In this document: positions 13,995 to 17,832 of the stretch, piece after piece
Numbering within the stretch: position 1 is the first letter of the stretch
How the letters are laid out: the number at the start of each line of letters is the position of its first letter
Source: Dickeya solani IPO 2222
Lineage (GTDB): Bacteria; Pseudomonadota; Gammaproteobacteria; Enterobacterales; Enterobacteriaceae
Reading direction: 5' to 3'
Length of the DNA: 32,000 nt
Assembly: GCF_001644705.1 (NCBI RefSeq)
Contig: NZ_CP015137.1
Span: forward strand, 3,270,001-3,302,000
Position numbers and translations under genes: made by a program
The notes under the pieces: model-generated
Told to the model about the DNA's origin: nothing
The model's database searches: none
Seen by the model: only the letters and a program-made list of their open reading frames with translations

Positions 13995-15107
13995 ATGAAT
14001 ATTCAGAGAAAAGAAAACTGGCTGAATGGTGCCAATGATTTTCTGATGGAAACCGGCGTGAAAGAAATCGCGTTGGCGATTATTGAAAAGATATTCGCCC
14101 GCCGCTGTCTGGTGGAGGAGAGCGGTCAGGAGAATTGCCGCTATGAGGATGAAGTCGCACCGCATCTCGATACGGTCATGCAAGCGGTCAGCCATCAGCA
14201 ACCGATAGTCATGATTCTTCCTGCTTTTCCGGGGAAGTCGCCGAATCGTAAGAAAACGCTTGGCCATCTTCCTGATTATGCAGAGCTTTACGCACTGGAT
14301 AATTTGCATGAATTATGTCAGGAGATTCGCCGTGTTTATCAGCCAGGCGCGGTCATCGGTATTTGTTCTGACGGCTATGTATTTTCCGATGTAGTTAGAA
14401 TCCCCGATCGTCAGGTAAAAGCTTACACGGATATGATCAGCGACTATTGCACGAAAAAATATCCGGGTATGTTTTTTATGTATGACCTGATTGATACCTA
14501 TCCGGAAATCAAGCATCTCGATTCTTTGCGGGAAGAATTGATGATTCAGTACGGCACATCGTTACTGGCGCTGAAGAAAAGGGTAAAAGAGGAGCCTGAA
14601 GCCGCCTCCATGTATAAAGGCGTGACGCGTTTTTTGGGCGAGGACTACGGCGGCATGGATGAATTTGCCGGCGTCAGCAACGCGCAAATCCAGAAAGTGG
14701 CCCGCGTGGCGGCTTACCGCGTGATTCAGCGCAGTGAAGCCTGGAGCAAACATCTGGAAGAAAAATTCCCGCGGGCGGTTCGTCTGTCGATTCACCCGCA
14801 ATTCCGTATTTCCAAAAAGATCGGCATCAGACTGGCTCCGGTAAAAGACCGCTGGCGGACGCCGTGGCATTCGGTGGCGGTGAAACGGGGCGCCGACATT
14901 TATCTGGAAAAGCGTAGCAACGTGGATGAACGCGATTATCACCTGATCTTCAAGTCGGGACGTCCTTTTCACTATGTCAGTACTCAAATAAACAATATCA
15001 GTACTCAAATAAGCAATACCAGTACTCACATAAGTAATACCAGTACTCAAATAAACAGCGTCAATACCCAAATAAACGACGCCAGTACCCAAATAAAGGC
15101 GGAGTAG
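13995..15107 (+). CDS. PvcA/IsnA-like isocyanide (isonitrile) synthase with a C-terminal heptad-repeat tail
   Basis: I prefer ATG 13995 (AAAGG 8 nt upstream). DIT1/PvcA family signatures are present: 'LPAFPGKSPNRKKTLGHLPDYAE', 'ICSDGYVFSD', 'RLSIHPQ', 'TPWHS'. The last 42 aa are six copies of a seven-residue unit (consensus STQINxx). Confidence 0.85.
   Translation: MNIQRKENWLNGANDFLMETGVKEIALAIIEKIFARRCLVEESGQENCRYEDEVAPHLDTVMQAVSHQQPIVMILPAFPGKSPNRKKTLGHLPDYAELYALDNLHELCQEIRRVYQPGAVIGICSDGYVFSDVVRIPDRQVKAYTDMISDYCTKKYPGMFFMYDLIDTYPEIKHLDSLREELMIQYGTSLLALKKRVKEEPEAASMYKGVTRFLGEDYGGMDEFAGVSNAQIQKVARVAAYRVIQRSEAWSKHLEEKFPRAVRLSIHPQFRISKKIGIRLAPVKDRWRTPWHSVAVKRGADIYLEKRSNVDERDYHLIFKSGRPFHYVSTQINNISTQISNTSTHISNTSTQINSVNTQINDASTQIKAE
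14979..15104 (+). repeat. Six imperfect tandem copies of a 21-bp unit (AGTACTCAAATAAACAATATC-like), in frame within the CDS
   Basis: Units counted directly at 14979-14999, 15000-15020, 15021-15041, 15042-15062, 15063-15083 and 15084-15104. They encode STQINNI / STQISNT / STHISNT / STQINSV / NTQINDA / STQIKAE. Confidence 0.95.
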
Positions 15108-15110
15108 TCT

Positions 15111-15797
15111 ATGTCGGTAAATAAAGCGGCGATTTTCGATCTGGACGGTACGCTGGTCGATACCTTGCCCGGTATCGCGTTTGCGTTGCGTCAGGCGCTG
15201 GGCGCAGTCGGCGTAACGCCGGACCCGGCATTCATTGTCAGGGCACATATCGGCGGCGGGTCGGGAAACATGTTGGCCGCCGCCGCCAGGCATCATGGCG
15301 TCGGGGATACGGCGGCGTTGTCGCAACGCTACCATGCGCTGTATCAGGCGCATTGTCTGCACGATACCGTCTGCTATGCCGGTGTGAAAGAACTGGTTGT
15401 TGAGCTAAAAGTGCAGGGTGTCCGGCTGGCGGTATTGACCAATAAAGATGACACGCTGTCCAACCGCATCCTGCAGGCGTTATTTCCGCCAGATACCGTT
15501 GAGCTGGTGTATGGCGCCCGGCCCGATCGGCCGCTCAAGCCGGATATTAGCGGTTTGCAGCAGGTGATGAGCGCATTGGGAACGACGAGCGAGCAGTGTC
15601 TGTATGTGGGTGATACGTCGATTGACGTACAAACAGCAAATCGTGCCGGCGTTTGCGTCGCTTACGTGACGTGGGGATATGGCGATGGCGATAACATGGC
15701 CGACTGGCAGCCGAACGCTGTTTGCCATGACGTGGCGCAATTGAATACCTGCCTGCGTCAGCACCTGGCATTGCAGGAATTTGTGGCCTCTCGCTAA
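15111..15797 (+). CDS. HAD-IA hydrolase, phosphoglycolate-phosphatase-like
   Basis: 228 aa with the HAD motifs 'IFDLDGTLVDT', 'VLTNK' and 'YVGDTSIDVQTA'. The ATG is 3 nt after the upstream stop. Confidence 0.85.
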   Translation: MSVNKAAIFDLDGTLVDTLPGIAFALRQALGAVGVTPDPAFIVRAHIGGGSGNMLAAAARHHGVGDTAALSQRYHALYQAHCLHDTVCYAGVKELVVELKVQGVRLAVLTNKDDTLSNRILQALFPPDTVELVYGARPDRPLKPDISGLQQVMSALGTTSEQCLYVGDTSIDVQTANRAGVCVAYVTWGYGDGDNMADWQPNAVCHDVAQLNTCLRQHLALQEFVASR

Positions 15798-16068
15798 AAA
15801 GGCTGGAATGAGTACTGTTATTTTTTGACTGATATTCATCAGCAATCATGCCGGTGGCGTCGGATATTATTGATAATTCGTTGTCTTTATATTTTAACTT
15901 ATATTTTTATTTTACTGGATGCGACGCTGTTTCAGTGTGAAATGGCGTGCCCATTTATTGGCTATGAGCGCAAGGAAAATCCGATGCATTGTTTTTCATT
16001 TGAGTGGAAACAAGTTTTCCCCCTGAGCGGGAACAATGGAAAATACCCAATATTAATGGAGTGGAATT

Positions 16069-17832
16069 ATGCACGATAATTTGAATGAGACGGCTGGCAA
16101 GATAGCCGATATCGTAAAATCCTATCTGGTTCAGGCGCAGGATGATCGTTTTGAGCCGGAAGGGCGTATATTTCTGGAAAAACAAATCAGCGCCTTCCTG
16201 CACGCTTCTGAACCCGTCAGGTTTGTCCTGCCCGGTTTCCCTTGCAAATCCCCCAATATTGTCGACAAATCGTTCGGCATTTTGCCGGATTATGGCGATG
16301 TGATTTCCATCAATCGTCTGGAATCGTTGGCGAAAGCGATTCAGGCGTTATATGAACCCGGCAGTCAGGTGACCATTCTGAGTGATGGTATAACCTTTAA
16401 TGATATTGTCGAGGTTCCGGATGCAATCCGCAAAGAATATAACCAGCAGCTACGCGCGCTGATTCAGTCACCTTATATTGAATGGAAAGAACTCCGGGAT
16501 TTTCTCCCTGAAACGCGTTCGGATGATGAAACCCGTAAAGCGCTGATCAAATCGGCCGGATTACCGTACAAGGGCATCGCTGATTTTATCAAGCGCGTCG
16601 GGAATCACGACGAACTGGCGGCGACGCACGATAAAATCTGCAGTTATTTGTATAACGATGTGCGGCTGAACCGGCAACCTCAGCAGTCTAATGAAGACTA
16701 CCTGAACAGTGTGGCGGAAAAAGCCTATCAGATGATGTACCGCGGTCAGGCCTTGAGCGCGCTGGTGGAGCGAGCCTTCCCTGACGCTATTCGCCTGTCG
16801 GTTCATCAGTATGACAACGACGGCCCGAAATTTACCTTTGGTTTTGCCGACGGCCTTGCCACCGTGCGTCAACCGTGGCACAGCGTGCCGGTTCTGTCGG
16901 CGTCGGGGAATGTATCCCTACAGGGCCATGCCAGCGTTGATAAAGACCGCCATGTGCTGGTGACCTATCAGGGGCGCCCCTGGGTGTATGTGGAAGCTGG
17001 GGACGCCAGCGCCGGGAAGTTCGATTACGAATTACTCAAACAACCGCTGTTCGGCCTGAAGATTGACGATCCGCAGGGGCTGGGGGTTGAGGCGCTGCCG
17101 CCGGCGTTTCTGGCGTTCCTGTCCGCTCAGTTCGGTTTCGTGTGTATCAAGGGCGTGCAGTTTGAGCGCAGCGAGCAGCTGGAAACGTTTTGCCAGCCGT
17201 TCGGCGAGATTTTCCAGTGGCAGTTCGGCGCGGTGCATGTGGTGAAACCGGAGGAAAAACCGAGCGGATTCGTACATTCGCTGGAGAAAACGCCGATACA
17301 CTGGGACCTGAGCATGATCCGGCTGGATCACGAACAGGTTGGCGGTAATCCCTGGTTTACCGCAGAGCGCTTCATGCTGTATTGCAAGACCCCGCCGAAG
17401 AAAGGTGAGGGCAGCACCACGGTGGTGGATGGCCGCATCGTAATGGATATGGTCGGCCCGGACGTGGTGAAAAAATGGGAAGACGTTCACATCACCTATA
17501 ACACCCCGATGACCTATTTCGGCGGCAAACCACGCACTTATCCGCTGGTGTACGCGCACCCGAAAACCGGCAAAAAGGCGTTTCGCTATCAGGAAGGCAG
17601 CGACTCCGACTTGCAGAAGTTTACCGTTGAGGTGGAAGGCGTTTCTGGGCAGGAGAGCCAGGCCTTCATCGGGGAGCTTGACCGGCTGGTGTACGATGAG
17701 CGCTGCATGATTGCCCATGACTGGGATCAGGGCGACCTGCTGATCATCGATAACTGGCAGACGCTGCACGGCCGGCTGCCGATGACCGAAGCATCACGCG
17801 GTCGTGAGCTGTGGCGGGTGCAGGTGTTTTAA
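16069..17832 (+). CDS. Fused isocyanide synthase (IsnA/PvcA-like) and Fe(II)/2-oxoglutarate dioxygenase (IsnB/PvcB, TauD/TfdA-like)
   Basis: 587 aa. The N-terminal half has 'LPGFPCKSPNIVDKSFGILPDYGD', 'ILSDGITFND', 'RLSVHQY' and 'QPWHS'. The C-terminal half has an HxD motif ('IHWDLS') and the distal 'DNWQTLHGR', as in TauD/TfdA enzymes. GGAG SD 7 nt upstream of the ATG. Confidence 0.85.
   Translation: MHDNLNETAGKIADIVKSYLVQAQDDRFEPEGRIFLEKQISAFLHASEPVRFVLPGFPCKSPNIVDKSFGILPDYGDVISINRLESLAKAIQALYEPGSQVTILSDGITFNDIVEVPDAIRKEYNQQLRALIQSPYIEWKELRDFLPETRSDDETRKALIKSAGLPYKGIADFIKRVGNHDELAATHDKICSYLYNDVRLNRQPQQSNEDYLNSVAEKAYQMMYRGQALSALVERAFPDAIRLSVHQYDNDGPKFTFGFADGLATVRQPWHSVPVLSASGNVSLQGHASVDKDRHVLVTYQGRPWVYVEAGDASAGKFDYELLKQPLFGLKIDDPQGLGVEALPPAFLAFLSAQFGFVCIKGVQFERSEQLETFCQPFGEIFQWQFGAVHVVKPEEKPSGFVHSLEKTPIHWDLSMIRLDHEQVGGNPWFTAERFMLYCKTPPKKGEGSTTVVDGRIVMDMVGPDVVKKWEDVHITYNTPMTYFGGKPRTYPLVYAHPKTGKKAFRYQEGSDSDLQKFTVEVEGVSGQESQAFIGELDRLVYDERCMIAHDWDQGDLLIIDNWQTLHGRLPMTEASRGRELWRVQVF

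What the first reader, a model, noticed from the sequence alone, without database searches (positions are those of the whole stretch)
13995..17832. Isonitrile locus with two isocyanide synthases, one fused to its dioxygenase, and an embedded HAD phosphatase
**Seen in sequence.**
- Both 13995..15107 and the N-terminal half of 16069..17832 carry the PvcA/IsnA (DIT1_PvcA) signatures FP-x-KSPN, SDG-x-x-F-x-D, RLS-x-H and PWHS.
- The C-terminal half of the second protein has TauD/TfdA HxD...H motifs.
- A Gph-like HAD phosphatase lies between the two, 3 nt after the first gene.

**Established knowledge.**
- In the bacterial pathways I know (pvcAB, isnAB for rhabduscin/paerucumarin-type products), the synthase and dioxygenase are separate proteins.
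- The fused architecture is what I associate with fungal enzymes of the XanB type.
- IsnA-type enzymes take the isonitrile carbon from ribulose-5-phosphate.

**Inference.**
- Two synthases suggest either a di-isonitrile or two substrates.
- The phosphatase may process the sugar-phosphate co-substrate or its by-product.
- The flanking MFS genes (11850..13061, 17896..19116) are candidate exporters.
Basis: partly seen in the sequence, partly recalled or inferred. Interest (0 to 1): 0.75.

Follow-up and report, generated by a model that had tools for sequence, protein, structure and literature searches.

The report
Compact two-synthase isonitrile operon, Dickeya
This stretch of the potato pathogen Dickeya solani holds a three-gene operon (isonitrile synthase, HAD phosphatase, second isonitrile synthase fused to an iron dioxygenase) that belongs to a widespread but unstudied bacterial cassette, most likely making a small vinyl-isonitrile compound.

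Summary
Gene 13995..15107 is an isocyanide synthase (ICS1). Gene 15111..15797 is a Gph-like HAD phosphatase. Gene 16069..17832 is an ICS fused to a PIsnB/PvcB-like Fe/2-oxoglutarate dioxygenase (ICS2-TauD).

The interpretation needs correcting on one point: the fusion is not a fungal peculiarity. A scan of species-representative bacterial genomes found 470 relatives. The exact order ICS1 | HAD | ICS2-TauD recurs in Dickeya, about 40 Pseudomonas species, Pantoea, Serratia, Shewanella and marine proteobacteria. In Thalassomonas and Pseudoalteromonas the HAD is itself fused to ICS2-TauD.

The only characterised relative is SpgA plus SpgD (an IsnA-IsnB fusion) of the Burkholderia sinapigladioside pathway. 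There the fused ICS domain was judged inactive. In Dickeya, ICS2 keeps all 16 invariant polar residues checked and has dN/dS 0.09, so it is not an obvious pseudo-enzyme. It does carry clade-specific changes in conserved columns.

ICS1 and ICS2 are old paralogues (28% identity) whose trees mirror each other. The dioxygenase keeps the iron triad and the carboxylate anchor, and shares the SpgD-type signature, which points to a decarboxylated vinyl isonitrile.

The product, the role of ICS2 and the role of the HAD are untested. I rate this a new variant of a known kind, of moderate interest.

The parts
13062..13994 (.). AT-rich (about 37% GC) non-coding region upstream of ICS1; presumed promoter and regulatory region of the operon
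   Evidence: Composition profile and sequence. It is 68% identical over 631 nt to the equivalent region of D. undicola. The promoter-consensus scan did not exceed shuffled controls, so no promoter is located.
13995..15107 (+). ICS1: standalone isocyanide synthase of the 'partner' clade that includes the Burkholderia locus L063, taken as the spg orthologue (its standalone ICS = SpgA orthologue); presumed L-Tyr (or L-Trp) + ribulose-5-phosphate to alpha-isocyano acid
   Evidence: PF05141 E 2e-78. PvcA 3e59 E 1e-54 and PIsnA 9dhm E 2e-51. 40% identical to PvcA and 49% to the SpgA orthologue. Carries the consensus residue at every one of the 57 near-invariant columns (>=24 of 25 standalone ICS). 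Partner-ICS1 clade bootstrap 100/100. dN/dS 0.105 against D. undicola. An alternative start at 13956 is used in some annotations.
14978..15097 (+). 21-bp tandem repeat (5.7 copies) encoding a C-terminal STQI(N/S)Nx heptad tail on ICS1; copy number varies among Dickeya
   Evidence: TRF. Tails of the orthologues compared. ICS1 lengths range 332-383 aa across Dickeya strains.
15111..15797 (+). HAD-IA (Gph-like) phosphatase with intact catalytic motifs; dedicated accessory enzyme of the cassette, substrate unknown
   Evidence: HAD_2 E 1e-27. Phosphoglycolate-phosphatase models score below cut-off. Motifs D10-x-D12-G-T, T110, K143, G-D168-x3-D172. Closest non-Dickeya relatives are the cassette HADs of Serratia and Pseudomonas at about 40% identity. 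Conserved position in 53 of 57 loci and fused to ICS2-TauD in 3 loci. dN/dS 0.16.
15798..16068 (.). 271-nt AT-rich spacer between the HAD gene and ORF3; in Serratia and some other genera this slot holds a DUF442/PTP-like gene
   Evidence: Sequence. 72% identical over 194 nt to D. undicola. No remnant of the PTP-like gene found by tblastn. No Rfam match.
16069..17028 (+). ICS2 domain (aa 1-320) of the fusion protein: an old paralogue of ICS1 (28% identity) with the invariant polar residues kept and a clade-specific set of changes in conserved columns
   Evidence: PF05141 E 1.7e-62. Keeps K60 S61 D74 S105 D106 D112 Y124 R156 D197 R225 R242 S244 H246 K254 W270 H271. Fused ICS domains are monophyletic, 100/100. 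dN/dS 0.092. Fold match to PIsnA, TM 0.83.
17029..17832 (+). Fe(II)/2-oxoglutarate dioxygenase domain (aa 321-587), IsnB/PvcB-like; presumed oxidative decarboxylation of the alpha-isocyano acid to a vinyl isonitrile
   Evidence: PF02668 E 1.5e-32. PIsnB 7tcl E 9e-27 and PvcB 1e-18. Iron ligands H411, D413, H567; carboxylate anchor R583; W384 (residue roles from PMC9467999). Same HWDLSM loop and Gln at the PIsnB-N188 position as the SpgD orthologues. dN/dS 0.046.
17896..19116 (-). EntS-like MFS_3 transporter, convergent with ORF3; candidate exporter, linked to the cassette only within Dickeya
   Evidence: PF05977 E 4e-39. EntS model 157 bits, below cut-off. 97% identical and in the same position in D. 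undicola. Absent next to the cassette in other genera.
11850..13061 (-). MFS_1 transporter upstream; weak candidate exporter, not conserved with the cassette
   Evidence: PF07690 E 2e-15. No counterpart in D. undicola L001, where the LysR gene is followed directly by the upstream region and ICS1.

Best explanation
The locus is a self-contained, horizontally spread three-gene operon for a small aromatic isonitrile. It belongs to the same lineage as the SpgA/SpgD core of the Burkholderia sinapigladioside pathway.

**Proposed steps**
1. ICS1 condenses the amino group of L-tyrosine (less likely L-tryptophan) with ribulose-5-phosphate to give the alpha-isocyano acid. This is inferred from homology to the SpgA orthologue, PvcA and PIsnA.
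2. The C-terminal Fe/2-oxoglutarate domain of ORF3 removes the carboxylate oxidatively to give the vinyl isonitrile. This is inferred from conserved iron and substrate ligands and from sharing the SpgD-type active-site signature.
3. The N-terminal ICS2 domain of ORF3 is an old, co-evolving paralogue of ICS1. Here it still has every invariant polar residue. I take it to be catalytically competent and packed directly against the dioxygenase, either feeding it directly or receiving the ICS1 product.
4. The HAD enzyme is a dedicated phosphatase acting on a phosphorylated co-substrate, side-product or intermediate of the ribulose-5-phosphate-dependent step. This is inferred only from conserved position and gene fusion.
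5. The product leaves through a flanking efflux pump.

No tailoring genes (glycosyl-, methyl-transferase, P450) accompany the cassette in any genus, so the end product is probably the bare aryl vinyl isonitrile or a spontaneous derivative.
For: **Domain identities**
- Established by Pfam, PDB sequence matches and fold matches.

**Distribution and architecture**
- 470 relatives in species-representative genomes.
- 44 of 79 loci examined have ICS | HAD | ICS-TauD, and 3 have ICS | HAD-ICS-TauD.
- Contexts differ completely between genera and lack tailoring genes. The Serratia copy lies in a conjugative element and the P. solani copy next to Tn7-like genes.

**Phylogeny**
- The ICS1 clade contains the SpgA orthologues (100/100). 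All fused ICS domains form one clade (100/100).
- The two subtrees show the same main groupings of taxa (by inspection).

**Precedent**
- Knockouts of SpgA and SpgD each abolish sinapigladioside, a tyrosine-derived vinyl compound (PMC8252389).

**ICS2 and selection**
- ICS2 keeps 16 of 16 polar residues checked.
- dN/dS is 0.05-0.16 for all four modules.
- Eleven cyanobacterial loci (Calothrix, Rivularia, Pleurocapsa) have the fusion with the same residues and no partner ICS within 10 kb, which implies the fused ICS can work alone.

**Dioxygenase and HAD**
- Dioxygenase ligands and loop signature, interpreted with PMC9467999.
- HAD catalytic motifs are intact.
Against: - No product, transcript or enzyme activity is known for any member with this exact architecture. 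None of the ten literature searches found one.
- The substrate (Tyr or Trp or another amine) is not determined.
- ICS2 differs from all standalone enzymes at 12 or more otherwise invariant columns, including the PvcA D275/W277/T279 stretch. It may therefore bind something else, or nothing.
- The published K107/N188 rule for decarboxylation versus acrylate formation cannot be applied cleanly. The fused clade has an insertion after the HWD motif and Gln at the N188 position.
- Described IsnA chemistry has no known need for a phosphatase.
- The phosphatase-like gene spgC was dispensable in Burkholderia.
- The association of the HAD with an intact ICS2 is phylogenetically non-independent.
- The 271-nt gap before ORF3 leaves operon continuity in Dickeya unproven.
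Confidence: 0.6

Rival explanations
1. ICS2 is a non-catalytic docking or hand-off domain, as proposed for SpgD. ICS1 makes the only isonitrile. The ICS2 domain binds ICS1 or its labile product and passes it to the fused dioxygenase. The operon makes one mono-isonitrile.
For: - The SpgD precedent: its IsnA domain could not replace SpgA and lacks motifs.
- In the spg-type, Chromobacterium, Erwinia and Xenophilus fusions, R156 is lost in 10 of 10 loci, yet the domain is kept. So a non-catalytic role for this domain exists.
- ICS2 has fixed substitutions at columns invariant in working enzymes.
- The ICS1 and ICS2 trees mirror each other, as expected for physically interacting partners.
- The model shows the two ORF3 domains packed with no linker (pTM 0.88).
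Against: - In the Dickeya-type clade every invariant polar residue, including R156 and H271, is retained.
- Purifying selection on ICS2 is as strong as on ICS1.
- Cyanobacterial fusions with the same residue set have no partner ICS nearby.
Confidence: 0.3
2. Both synthases are active on different amines. The cassette then makes two different isonitriles or a di-isonitrile. The HAD supplies or unmasks the second amine, or clears a phosphorylated product specific to ICS2.
For: - ICS2 is intact but has a remodelled set of conserved residues.
- The HAD accompanies 53 of 57 loci that have ICS1 plus an intact ICS2. It accompanies none of 10 loci with a degenerate ICS2 and none of 11 with the fusion alone.
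- The HAD is fused directly to ICS2-TauD in Thalassomonas and Pseudoalteromonas.
Against: - No gene in or near the cassette would supply a diamine or dimerise two units; there is no P450 or other coupling enzyme.
- The one characterised relative gives a product with a single N-C unit.
- The HAD correlation may reflect one ancestral gain.
Confidence: 0.2
3. The dioxygenase acts as PvcB does (desaturation without decarboxylation), or the isonitrile is hydrated. The real product is then an isocyanoacrylate or an N-formyl compound rather than a vinyl isonitrile.
For: - The K107-equivalent position is Leu/Pro in most family members, and Leu is the PvcB state. The alignment there is ambiguous.
- Isocyanoacrylates and isonitriles hydrate readily (PMC9467999).
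Against: - The N188 position is Gln, not the Cys of PvcB.
- The domain scores higher against PIsnB (E 9e-27) than against PvcB (1e-18).
- The SpgD orthologues have the same signature, and their pathway gives a decarboxylated vinyl product.
Confidence: 0.12
4. The HAD gene is an ordinary housekeeping phosphoglycolate phosphatase that merely sits between two biosynthetic genes.
For: - Its best family matches are phosphoglycolate phosphatases.
- Beyond about 40% identity its relatives merge into generic Gph-like proteins from many phyla.
Against: - It scores below every phosphoglycolate phosphatase equivalog cut-off.
- It holds the same position in four proteobacterial classes or orders.
- It overlaps or abuts the ICS1 stop codon.
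- It is fused to ICS2-TauD in three loci.
Confidence: 0.05

Closest known systems
SpgA + SpgD (with SpgB MFS and SpgC phosphatase-like protein) of the Burkholderia gladioli sinapigladioside cluster (Dose et al. 2021, PMC8252389)
   Same: - Standalone IsnA-type synthase plus an IsnA-IsnB fusion protein, both encoded in one cluster.
- Dickeya ICS1 falls in the same 100%-supported clade as the Burkholderia SpgA orthologues (49% identity).
- The fusion falls in the same clade as the SpgD orthologues; dioxygenase domains are 46-49% identical by tblastn and share the same HWDLSM loop and Gln signature.
- An efflux gene and a phosphatase-type gene lie between or beside them.
   Different: - Dickeya has no glycosyl-, methyl- or sugar-modifying genes.
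- Its phosphatase-type gene is a HAD, not the DUF442/PTP-like protein.
- Its fused ICS domain keeps R156 and H271, which the spg-type has lost.
- No isothiocyanate or other product is known.
IsnA/IsnB (PIsnA/PIsnB, rhabduscin) and PvcA/PvcB (paerucumarin)
   Same: - Same two enzyme folds and the same conserved motifs.
- ORF3 N-domain matches PIsnA (9dhm) and the C-domain matches PIsnB (7tcl) in sequence and fold.
- ICS1 is 40% identical to PvcA.
   Different: - Those pathways have one synthase and a separate dioxygenase.
- ICS1 scores 219 bits against the PvcA equivalog model, whose cut-off is 600.
- ICS1 and ICS2 each form clades separate from PvcA/PIsnA.
- Those clusters contain no HAD gene.
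Fungal ICS-dioxygenase fusions of the XanB type (xanthocillin; PMC5974471)
   Same: - Same domain order, ICS then TauD.
- The one fungal fusion tested (P0075, Halenospora) falls on the fused side of the ICS tree (split 100/100).
   Different: - Only 26% identical to ICS2.
- The fungal dioxygenase has the PIsnB-like HFDGMFK loop and His at the N188 position, not the bacterial fused-clade signature.
- Fungal clusters use a P450 to dimerise; nothing comparable is present here.
- XanB itself was not available for comparison.
AmbI1/AmbI2/AmbI3 and WelI1-3 (hapalindole-type indolyl vinyl isonitrile)
   Same: Two ICS genes plus one dioxygenase kept together in every cluster (PMC4236562).
   Different: - I1 and I2 are recent duplicates (at least 78% identical), and I2 is reported as redundant.
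- ICS1 and ICS2 here are 28% identical, old paralogues, and one is fused to the dioxygenase.
Gph-type HAD-IA phosphatases (phosphoglycolate phosphatase and relatives)
   Same: Fold family and all four HAD catalytic motifs. Best solved matches are PtkA 6f2x (6e-21) and phosphoglycolate phosphatases 2nyv/2yy6 (2e-19).
   Different: Below the cut-off of every equivalog model. Embedded in, and in some genera fused to, an isonitrile enzyme.

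Membership tests
Isocyanide synthase (DIT1_PvcA, PF05141; IsnA/PvcA type) | Full-length match to the family profile above the curated cut-off | tested here: met
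   ICS1 264 bits and ICS2 212 bits, against a cut-off of 26.4.
Isocyanide synthase (DIT1_PvcA, PF05141; IsnA/PvcA type) | Residues invariant in working enzymes (PvcA, PIsnA and 23 other standalone ICS) are present | tested here: met
   ICS1 has all 57 invariant columns. ICS2 has all 16 polar/charged ones checked, but differs at 12 or more other invariant columns.
Isocyanide synthase (DIT1_PvcA, PF05141; IsnA/PvcA type) | PvcA/PIsnA fold | tested here: met
   ORF3 model against 9dhm, TM 0.83 (target-normalised), E 4e-23. ICS1 was not modelled.
Isocyanide synthase (DIT1_PvcA, PF05141; IsnA/PvcA type) | Converts an amino acid plus ribulose-5-phosphate to an isonitrile | not testable with these tools
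   Needs an enzyme assay or heterologous expression.
L-tyrosine isonitrile synthase PvcA (NCBIfam NF045653 equivalog) | Score at or above the equivalog cut-off (600 bits) | tested here: not met
   ICS1 219 bits, ICS2 98 bits. Neither is a PvcA orthologue.
IsnB/PvcB-type Fe(II)/2-oxoglutarate dioxygenase (TauD, PF02668) | Profile match and 2-His-1-Asp iron triad | tested here: met
   114 bits against a cut-off of 27. H411, D413 and H567 align with PIsnB H101, D103 and H250.
IsnB/PvcB-type Fe(II)/2-oxoglutarate dioxygenase (TauD, PF02668) | Substrate carboxylate anchor (PIsnB R265 with W74) and aromatic pocket residues | tested here: met
   R583 and W384 are conserved, and W412 and M416 are present.
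IsnB/PvcB-type Fe(II)/2-oxoglutarate dioxygenase (TauD, PF02668) | PIsnB-type selectivity markers (Lys/Arg at K107; Asn/His at N188) that predict decarboxylation | tested here: inconclusive
   The N188 position is Gln (not the Cys of PvcB). The K107 position is ambiguous because of an insertion: Ile/Arg in Dickeya, Leu/Pro in most of the clade.
SpgA/SpgD-type two-synthase system (sinapigladioside core) | Standalone ICS in the SpgA clade together with an ICS-IsnB fusion in the SpgD clade | tested here: met
   Partner-ICS1 clade 100/100 and fused clade 100/100. Genes are collinear.
SpgA/SpgD-type two-synthase system (sinapigladioside core) | Fused ICS domain degenerate (conserved motifs lost) | tested here: not met
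   R156 and H271 are retained in Dickeya and lost in the spg-type fusions.
SpgA/SpgD-type two-synthase system (sinapigladioside core) | Glycosyltransferase, methyltransferase and sugar-modifying genes in the cluster; isothiocyanate glycoside product | tested here: not met
   None within 10 kb in D. solani. They are present in B. stagnalis. The product is not testable here.
HAD-IA phosphatase | Motifs I-IV (DxDxT, S/T, K, GDxxxD) | tested here: met
   D10-L-D12-G-T, T110, K143, G-D168-T-S-I-D172. HAD_2 E 1e-27.
Phosphoglycolate phosphatase Gph (NCBIfam equivalogs) | Score at or above the equivalog cut-off | tested here: not met
   Best scores are 129.8 bits against a cut-off of 225, and 122.2 against 180.

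The most novel reading that the evidence does not exclude
Both synthase domains are active, and together with the dedicated HAD phosphatase they carry out isonitrile chemistry not yet described. Examples would be a second isonitrile on a different, phosphatase-unmasked amine, or a phosphorylated intermediate that must be hydrolysed. The product class would be unknown and present in Dickeya, dozens of Pseudomonas species, Serratia and marine proteobacteria. In soft-rot Dickeya it might act on copper enzymes such as plant or insect phenol oxidases, as rhabduscin and byelyankacin do. That last point is from my own knowledge and was not tested.
Probability: 0.25. Interest if true: 0.7.

Novelty: new variant of a known kind. 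Interest (0 to 1): 0.45.

Why it matters
**Unknown product in important bacteria.** Isonitriles are reactive metal-binding metabolites with roles in virulence, copper handling and antibiosis. This cassette is present in the main soft-rot Dickeya species: solani, dadantii 3937, dianthicola, fangzhongdai, chrysanthemi and undicola. It is also in many plant-associated Pseudomonas. No product or phenotype turned up in the literature I could search.

**A testable question about the second synthase.** The comparison gives a clean natural experiment.
- Clades where the second synthase domain is intact have a HAD.
- Clades where it has lost a conserved arginine do not.
- Cyanobacteria have the fusion alone.

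This makes it directly testable why these systems keep two synthases and a phosphatase-type module, a point left open by the sinapigladioside study.

**Practical use.** The operon is only 3.8 kb, so it is easy to express and mutate.

Tried and rejected
- **Remnant of a lost gene in the spacer.** I looked in the 271-nt HAD-ORF3 spacer for a remnant of the DUF442/PTP-like gene that fills this slot in Serratia. tblastn gave nothing better than E 0.16, and that hit lay elsewhere in the window.
- **RNA families.** Rfam scan of 11500..19500 at E <= 0.1 gave no match.
- **Promoters and terminators.** There were 7 promoter-like sites against 7.1 expected. There were 11 terminator-like sites against 5.6 +/- 2.5 expected, none convincing. 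Operon boundaries are therefore not settled.
- **Defence-system models.** PADLOC gave nothing relevant.
- **Plasmid carriage.** Only Burkholderia megaplasmids carry a full-length relative.
- **Chromobacterium triple fusion.** An apparent ICS-ICS-TauD fusion suggested by a 2.6-kb tblastn span is in fact two overlapping ORFs in different frames.
- **'Non-orthologous displacement' of the HAD by the PTP-like domain.** Weakened, because six loci carry both.
- **The PIsnB K107/N188 selectivity rule.** It does not transfer to the fused clade.
- **Upstream ThiF-rhodanese gene (6658..7743) as a sulfur donor for an isothiocyanate.** Rejected as part of this locus. It belongs to a separate low-GC YcaO/TfuA/MbnB-like cluster and is separated by unrelated genes.
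- **The LysR gene at about 10871..11782.** It is divergently placed next to an ornithine-cyclodeaminase / D-serine-dehydratase-like pair and is probably their regulator. It was not assigned to the cassette.
- **Papers not held.** The PvcA structure paper and the rhabduscin PNAS paper were unavailable. Catalytic roles of individual ICS residues therefore could not be taken from the literature.
- **First bootstrap script.** It timed out and was rewritten.

Full report
**1. What is in the sequence**

- ORF1 (13995..15107, 370 aa) matches the isocyanide-synthase family PF05141 over its whole length (E 2e-78).
- ORF2 (15111..15797, 228 aa) is a HAD-IA hydrolase (HAD_2, E 1e-27).
- ORF3 (16069..17832, 587 aa) has PF05141 at residues 40-297 (E 1.7e-62) and the TauD/TfdA dioxygenase family PF02668 at residues 331-584 (E 1.5e-32).

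The quoted motifs can be read directly in both synthase sequences. The HxD...H triad is at H411, D413 and H567.

The HAD start codon lies 3 nt after the ORF1 stop. An AT-rich gap of 271 nt precedes ORF3.

The best solved relatives are:
- PvcA (3e59) and PIsnA (9dhm/9dh4) for both synthase parts;
- PIsnB (7tcl) and then PvcB (3eat) for the dioxygenase part.

An AlphaFold2 model of ORF3 is confident (pLDDT 89.5, pTM 0.88). It shows no linker between the domains and matches PIsnA (TM 0.83) and PIsnB (TM 0.85).

The window is Dickeya solani: all three proteins match D. solani records exactly, on contig CP051457.1.

**2. The arrangement is a widespread cassette**

The fusion protein has full-length relatives in Serratia, Pseudomonas, Shewanella, Thalassomonas, Breoghania, cyanobacteria and others. 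A scan of one genome per bacterial species found 470 confirmed relatives, of which 75 loci were fetched. I located the window's proteins and a DUF442/PTP-like domain in these and nine further loci. The architectures were:

| Architecture | Loci |
|---|---|
| ICS \| HAD \| ICS-TauD | 44 |
| ICS-TauD alone (all cyanobacterial) | 11 |
| ICS \| ICS-TauD | 7 |
| ICS \| PTP-like \| ICS-TauD | 5 |
| ICS \| HAD \| PTP-like \| ICS-TauD | 5 |
| ICS \| HAD-ICS-TauD (Thalassomonas, Pseudoalteromonas) | 3 |
| ICS \| PTP-like-ICS-TauD | 2 |
| ICS \| HAD \| PTP-like-ICS-TauD | 1 |
| ICS \| TauD (unfused IsnA + IsnB, Streptomyces L071) | 1 |

Five further loci lacked a TauD hit and were not classified.

The sample is the best 80 hits, so it is biased towards Pseudomonas.

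Gene neighbourhoods differ completely between genera:
- housekeeping genes in Pseudomonas;
- a conjugative element with an RND pump in Serratia;
- an RND pump and Tn7-like genes in P. solani.

No glycosyltransferase, methyltransferase or P450 travels with the cassette. The unit is therefore the three genes themselves, and it moves horizontally. In D. solani it is 49-52% GC between an AT-rich upstream region and flanks above 60% GC.

In a library of 1.84 billion representatives at 50% identity, only 72 proteins reach E <= 1e-30. The family is widespread across taxa but small.

**3. Comparison with what is known**

The literature search found one characterised system with the same core (PMC8252389). 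In Burkholderia gladioli, the sinapigladioside cluster encodes:
- SpgA, an IsnA homologue;
- SpgB, an MFS transporter;
- SpgC, described as a 'tyrosine phosphatase' and dispensable;
- SpgD, an IsnA-IsnB fusion.

Deleting either spgA or spgD abolished the tyrosine-derived product. [quoted passage not shown] They also noted many related uncharacterised clusters in Proteobacteria.

I treat the B. stagnalis locus as the spg orthologue, because the spg paper names B. stagnalis among the strains carrying the locus. It shows the same order followed by tailoring genes.

Hapalindole clusters also keep two synthases, but those are recent duplicates (at least 78% identical), and I2 is reported as redundant (PMC4236562).

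No paper in the searchable library links Dickeya to isonitriles.

**4. Phylogeny**

I built a neighbour-joining tree of 46 ICS domains (303 columns, 100 bootstraps).
- All fused ICS domains separate from all standalone ones (100/100).
- The standalone 'partner' enzymes, including Dickeya ICS1 and the Burkholderia SpgA orthologues, form a clade (100/100). This clade is apart from PvcA + PIsnA (100/100) and from actinobacterial IsnA.
- The partner and fused subtrees have nearly the same topology, so the two genes have evolved together as a pair.

Identities are: ICS1-ICS2 28%, ICS1-PvcA 40%, ICS2-PvcA 32%, ICS1-SpgA orthologue 49%.

One fungal ICS-dioxygenase fusion (P0075) falls on the fused side of the tree (100/100). 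However, the bacterial fused lineage is large and distinct, and XanB itself was not available.

**5. Is one synthase a pseudo-enzyme?**

I listed the 57 alignment columns that are invariant, or nearly so, in 25 standalone enzymes, including PvcA and PIsnA.
- ICS1 has all of them.
- Dickeya-type ICS2 keeps every polar or charged one: K60, S61, D74, S105, D106, D112, Y124, R156, D197, R225, R242, S244, H246, K254, W270, H271.
- ICS2 also carries substitutions that are themselves conserved within the fused clade: L104 for Cys, N196 for Glu, M222 for Val, G226 for Ser, L229 for Trp, Q247-Y248 for Pro-Gln, T256 for Gly.
- The PvcA D275/W277/T279 positions are variable in ICS2.

The spg-type, Chromobacterium, Erwinia and Xenophilus fusions have lost R156 in 10 of 10 loci, and some have lost H271. 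This agrees with the published view of SpgD.

dN/dS against D. undicola:

| Module | dN/dS |
|---|---|
| ICS2 | 0.092 |
| ICS1 | 0.105 |
| HAD | 0.160 |
| Dioxygenase | 0.046 |

Cyanobacterial fusions with the same residue set have no partner synthase within 10 kb. The fused domain can therefore presumably work alone.

I conclude that ICS2 in Dickeya is not a decayed domain. Whether it is catalytic, and on what substrate, cannot be decided from sequence.

**6. The dioxygenase**

I aligned the domain to substrate-bound PIsnB, taking residue roles from PMC9467999.
- The iron ligands are present: H101/D103/H250 correspond to H411/D413/H567.
- The carboxylate anchor is present: R265 corresponds to R583, with W74 corresponding to W384.
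- Part of the aromatic pocket is present.

That paper's rule for predicting decarboxylation does not transfer cleanly. The rule is Lys/Arg at K107 and Asn/His at N188, against Leu and Cys in PvcB. The whole bacterial fused clade has an insertion of about 12 residues after the HWD motif and Gln at the N188 position.

The SpgD orthologues share exactly this signature, and their pathway yields a decarboxylated vinyl product. I therefore predict decarboxylative formation of a vinyl isonitrile.

**7. The phosphatase**

The HAD has intact motifs I-IV. It scores below the cut-off of every phosphoglycolate-phosphatase model. Its nearest non-Dickeya relatives are the cassette HADs of Serratia and Pseudomonas at about 40% identity; beyond that it merges into generic Gph-like proteins.

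The evidence that it belongs to the pathway is contextual:
- a conserved position in four proteobacterial classes or orders;
- start codons overlapping or abutting the ICS1 stop;
- fusion to ICS2-TauD in three loci.

Its distribution across locus types is as follows.

| Locus type | Loci with the HAD |
|---|---|
| ICS1 plus ICS2 that keeps R156 | 53 of 57 |
| ICS2 that has lost R156 | 0 of 10 |
| Cyanobacterial fusion alone | 0 of 11 |

These counts are not phylogenetically independent and could reflect a single gain.

The chemistry described for IsnA enzymes is an amino acid plus ribulose-5-phosphate (PMC11350588). It has no stated need for a phosphatase, so the HAD's substrate is unknown.

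**8. Exporters and regulation**

- The right-hand MFS gene (17896..19116) is conserved beside the cassette in D. undicola (97% identity). The left-hand one is absent there.
- Neither accompanies the cassette in other genera, where RND or other MFS pumps sometimes do.
- Promoter and terminator scans and Rfam gave nothing usable.

**9. Verdict**

The locus is a real, intact isonitrile operon. It is a member of a conserved ICS1 | HAD | ICS2-dioxygenase cassette related to the SpgA/SpgD core of sinapigladioside biosynthesis.

It differs in three ways:
- it has a HAD instead of, or elsewhere in addition to, a DUF442-like protein;
- its second synthase domain is apparently intact;
- it has no tailoring genes.

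The most likely product is a tyrosine-derived vinyl isonitrile.

Shown here: domain identities, residue conservation, synteny, co-evolution of the pair and purifying selection.

Inferred only: substrate, product, activity of ICS2, function of the HAD and export.

Noticed in passing
window 53..7967 (- strand): A separate low-GC (40-48%) RiPP-like cluster. It contains TfuA (53..721), YcaO (725..1906), a 1010-aa carbamoyltransferase-domain protein (1903..4935), an MbnB/TglH/ChrH-family enzyme (4965..5798), a 194-aa partner with no Pfam match (5795..6379), an 86-aa ORF ending in Gly-Gly (6382..6642, ThiS/MoaD-like by its C-terminus), a ThiF-rhodanese protein (6658..7743), and a 40-aa Cys-containing ORF (7845..7967) that could be the precursor peptide.
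   Followed up: partly
window 14978..15097: A 21-bp tandem repeat (5.7 copies) gives ICS1 a C-terminal STQI(N/S)Nx heptad tail. D. undicola and D. chrysanthemi have one copy, D. dianthicola two and D. solani six. Annotated ICS1 lengths range from 332 to 383 aa across Dickeya strains. Its function is unknown.
   Followed up: partly
L078:7518-7988 (Serratia marcescens), and the N-termini of P0007, P0017, P0033, P0049 and others: The 'tyrosine-phosphatase-like' module that accompanies or is fused to ICS2-TauD in many genera belongs to the DUF442 family (PDB 3gxg, E 3e-18). It has an invariant HCAANYR(V/A)S motif, that is CX4R, one residue shorter than the classical CX5R phosphatase loop. It may not be a conventional phosphatase. 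From my own memory and unchecked: DUF442 domains occur in sulfur-metabolism fusions. That would be of interest for the unexplained sulfur transfer in isothiocyanate formation.
   Followed up: partly
window 19899..22865 (- strand): A SiaABCD-like signalling module: a GGDEF protein, SiaC (PF09345), a DUF6272 protein and a SpoIIE/PP2C phosphatase. It lies downstream of a YjdM/PhnA zinc-ribbon gene at 19445..19807.
   Followed up: no
window 8687..11782: An ornithine-cyclodeaminase/mu-crystallin gene and an alanine-racemase-N/D-serine-dehydratase-like gene lie divergent from a LysR regulator. The long ORF calls at 8687..9937 and 10727..11782 over-extend the annotated genes, which are 308 aa and 303 aa in the public record.
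   Followed up: no
L007 and L008 (Pseudomonas frederiksbergensis 36C6, one contig): The same genome record carries two copies of the whole cassette about 150 kb apart, with identical tblastn scores. This may be a duplication or an assembly-joining artefact; the contig is labelled 'Joined'.
   Followed up: no
window 15111..15797: The best solved-structure match of the HAD is the Mycobacterium tuberculosis HAD-fold 'protein tyrosine kinase A' (6f2x, E 6e-21), marginally ahead of phosphoglycolate phosphatases. This is probably just family resemblance.
   Followed up: no
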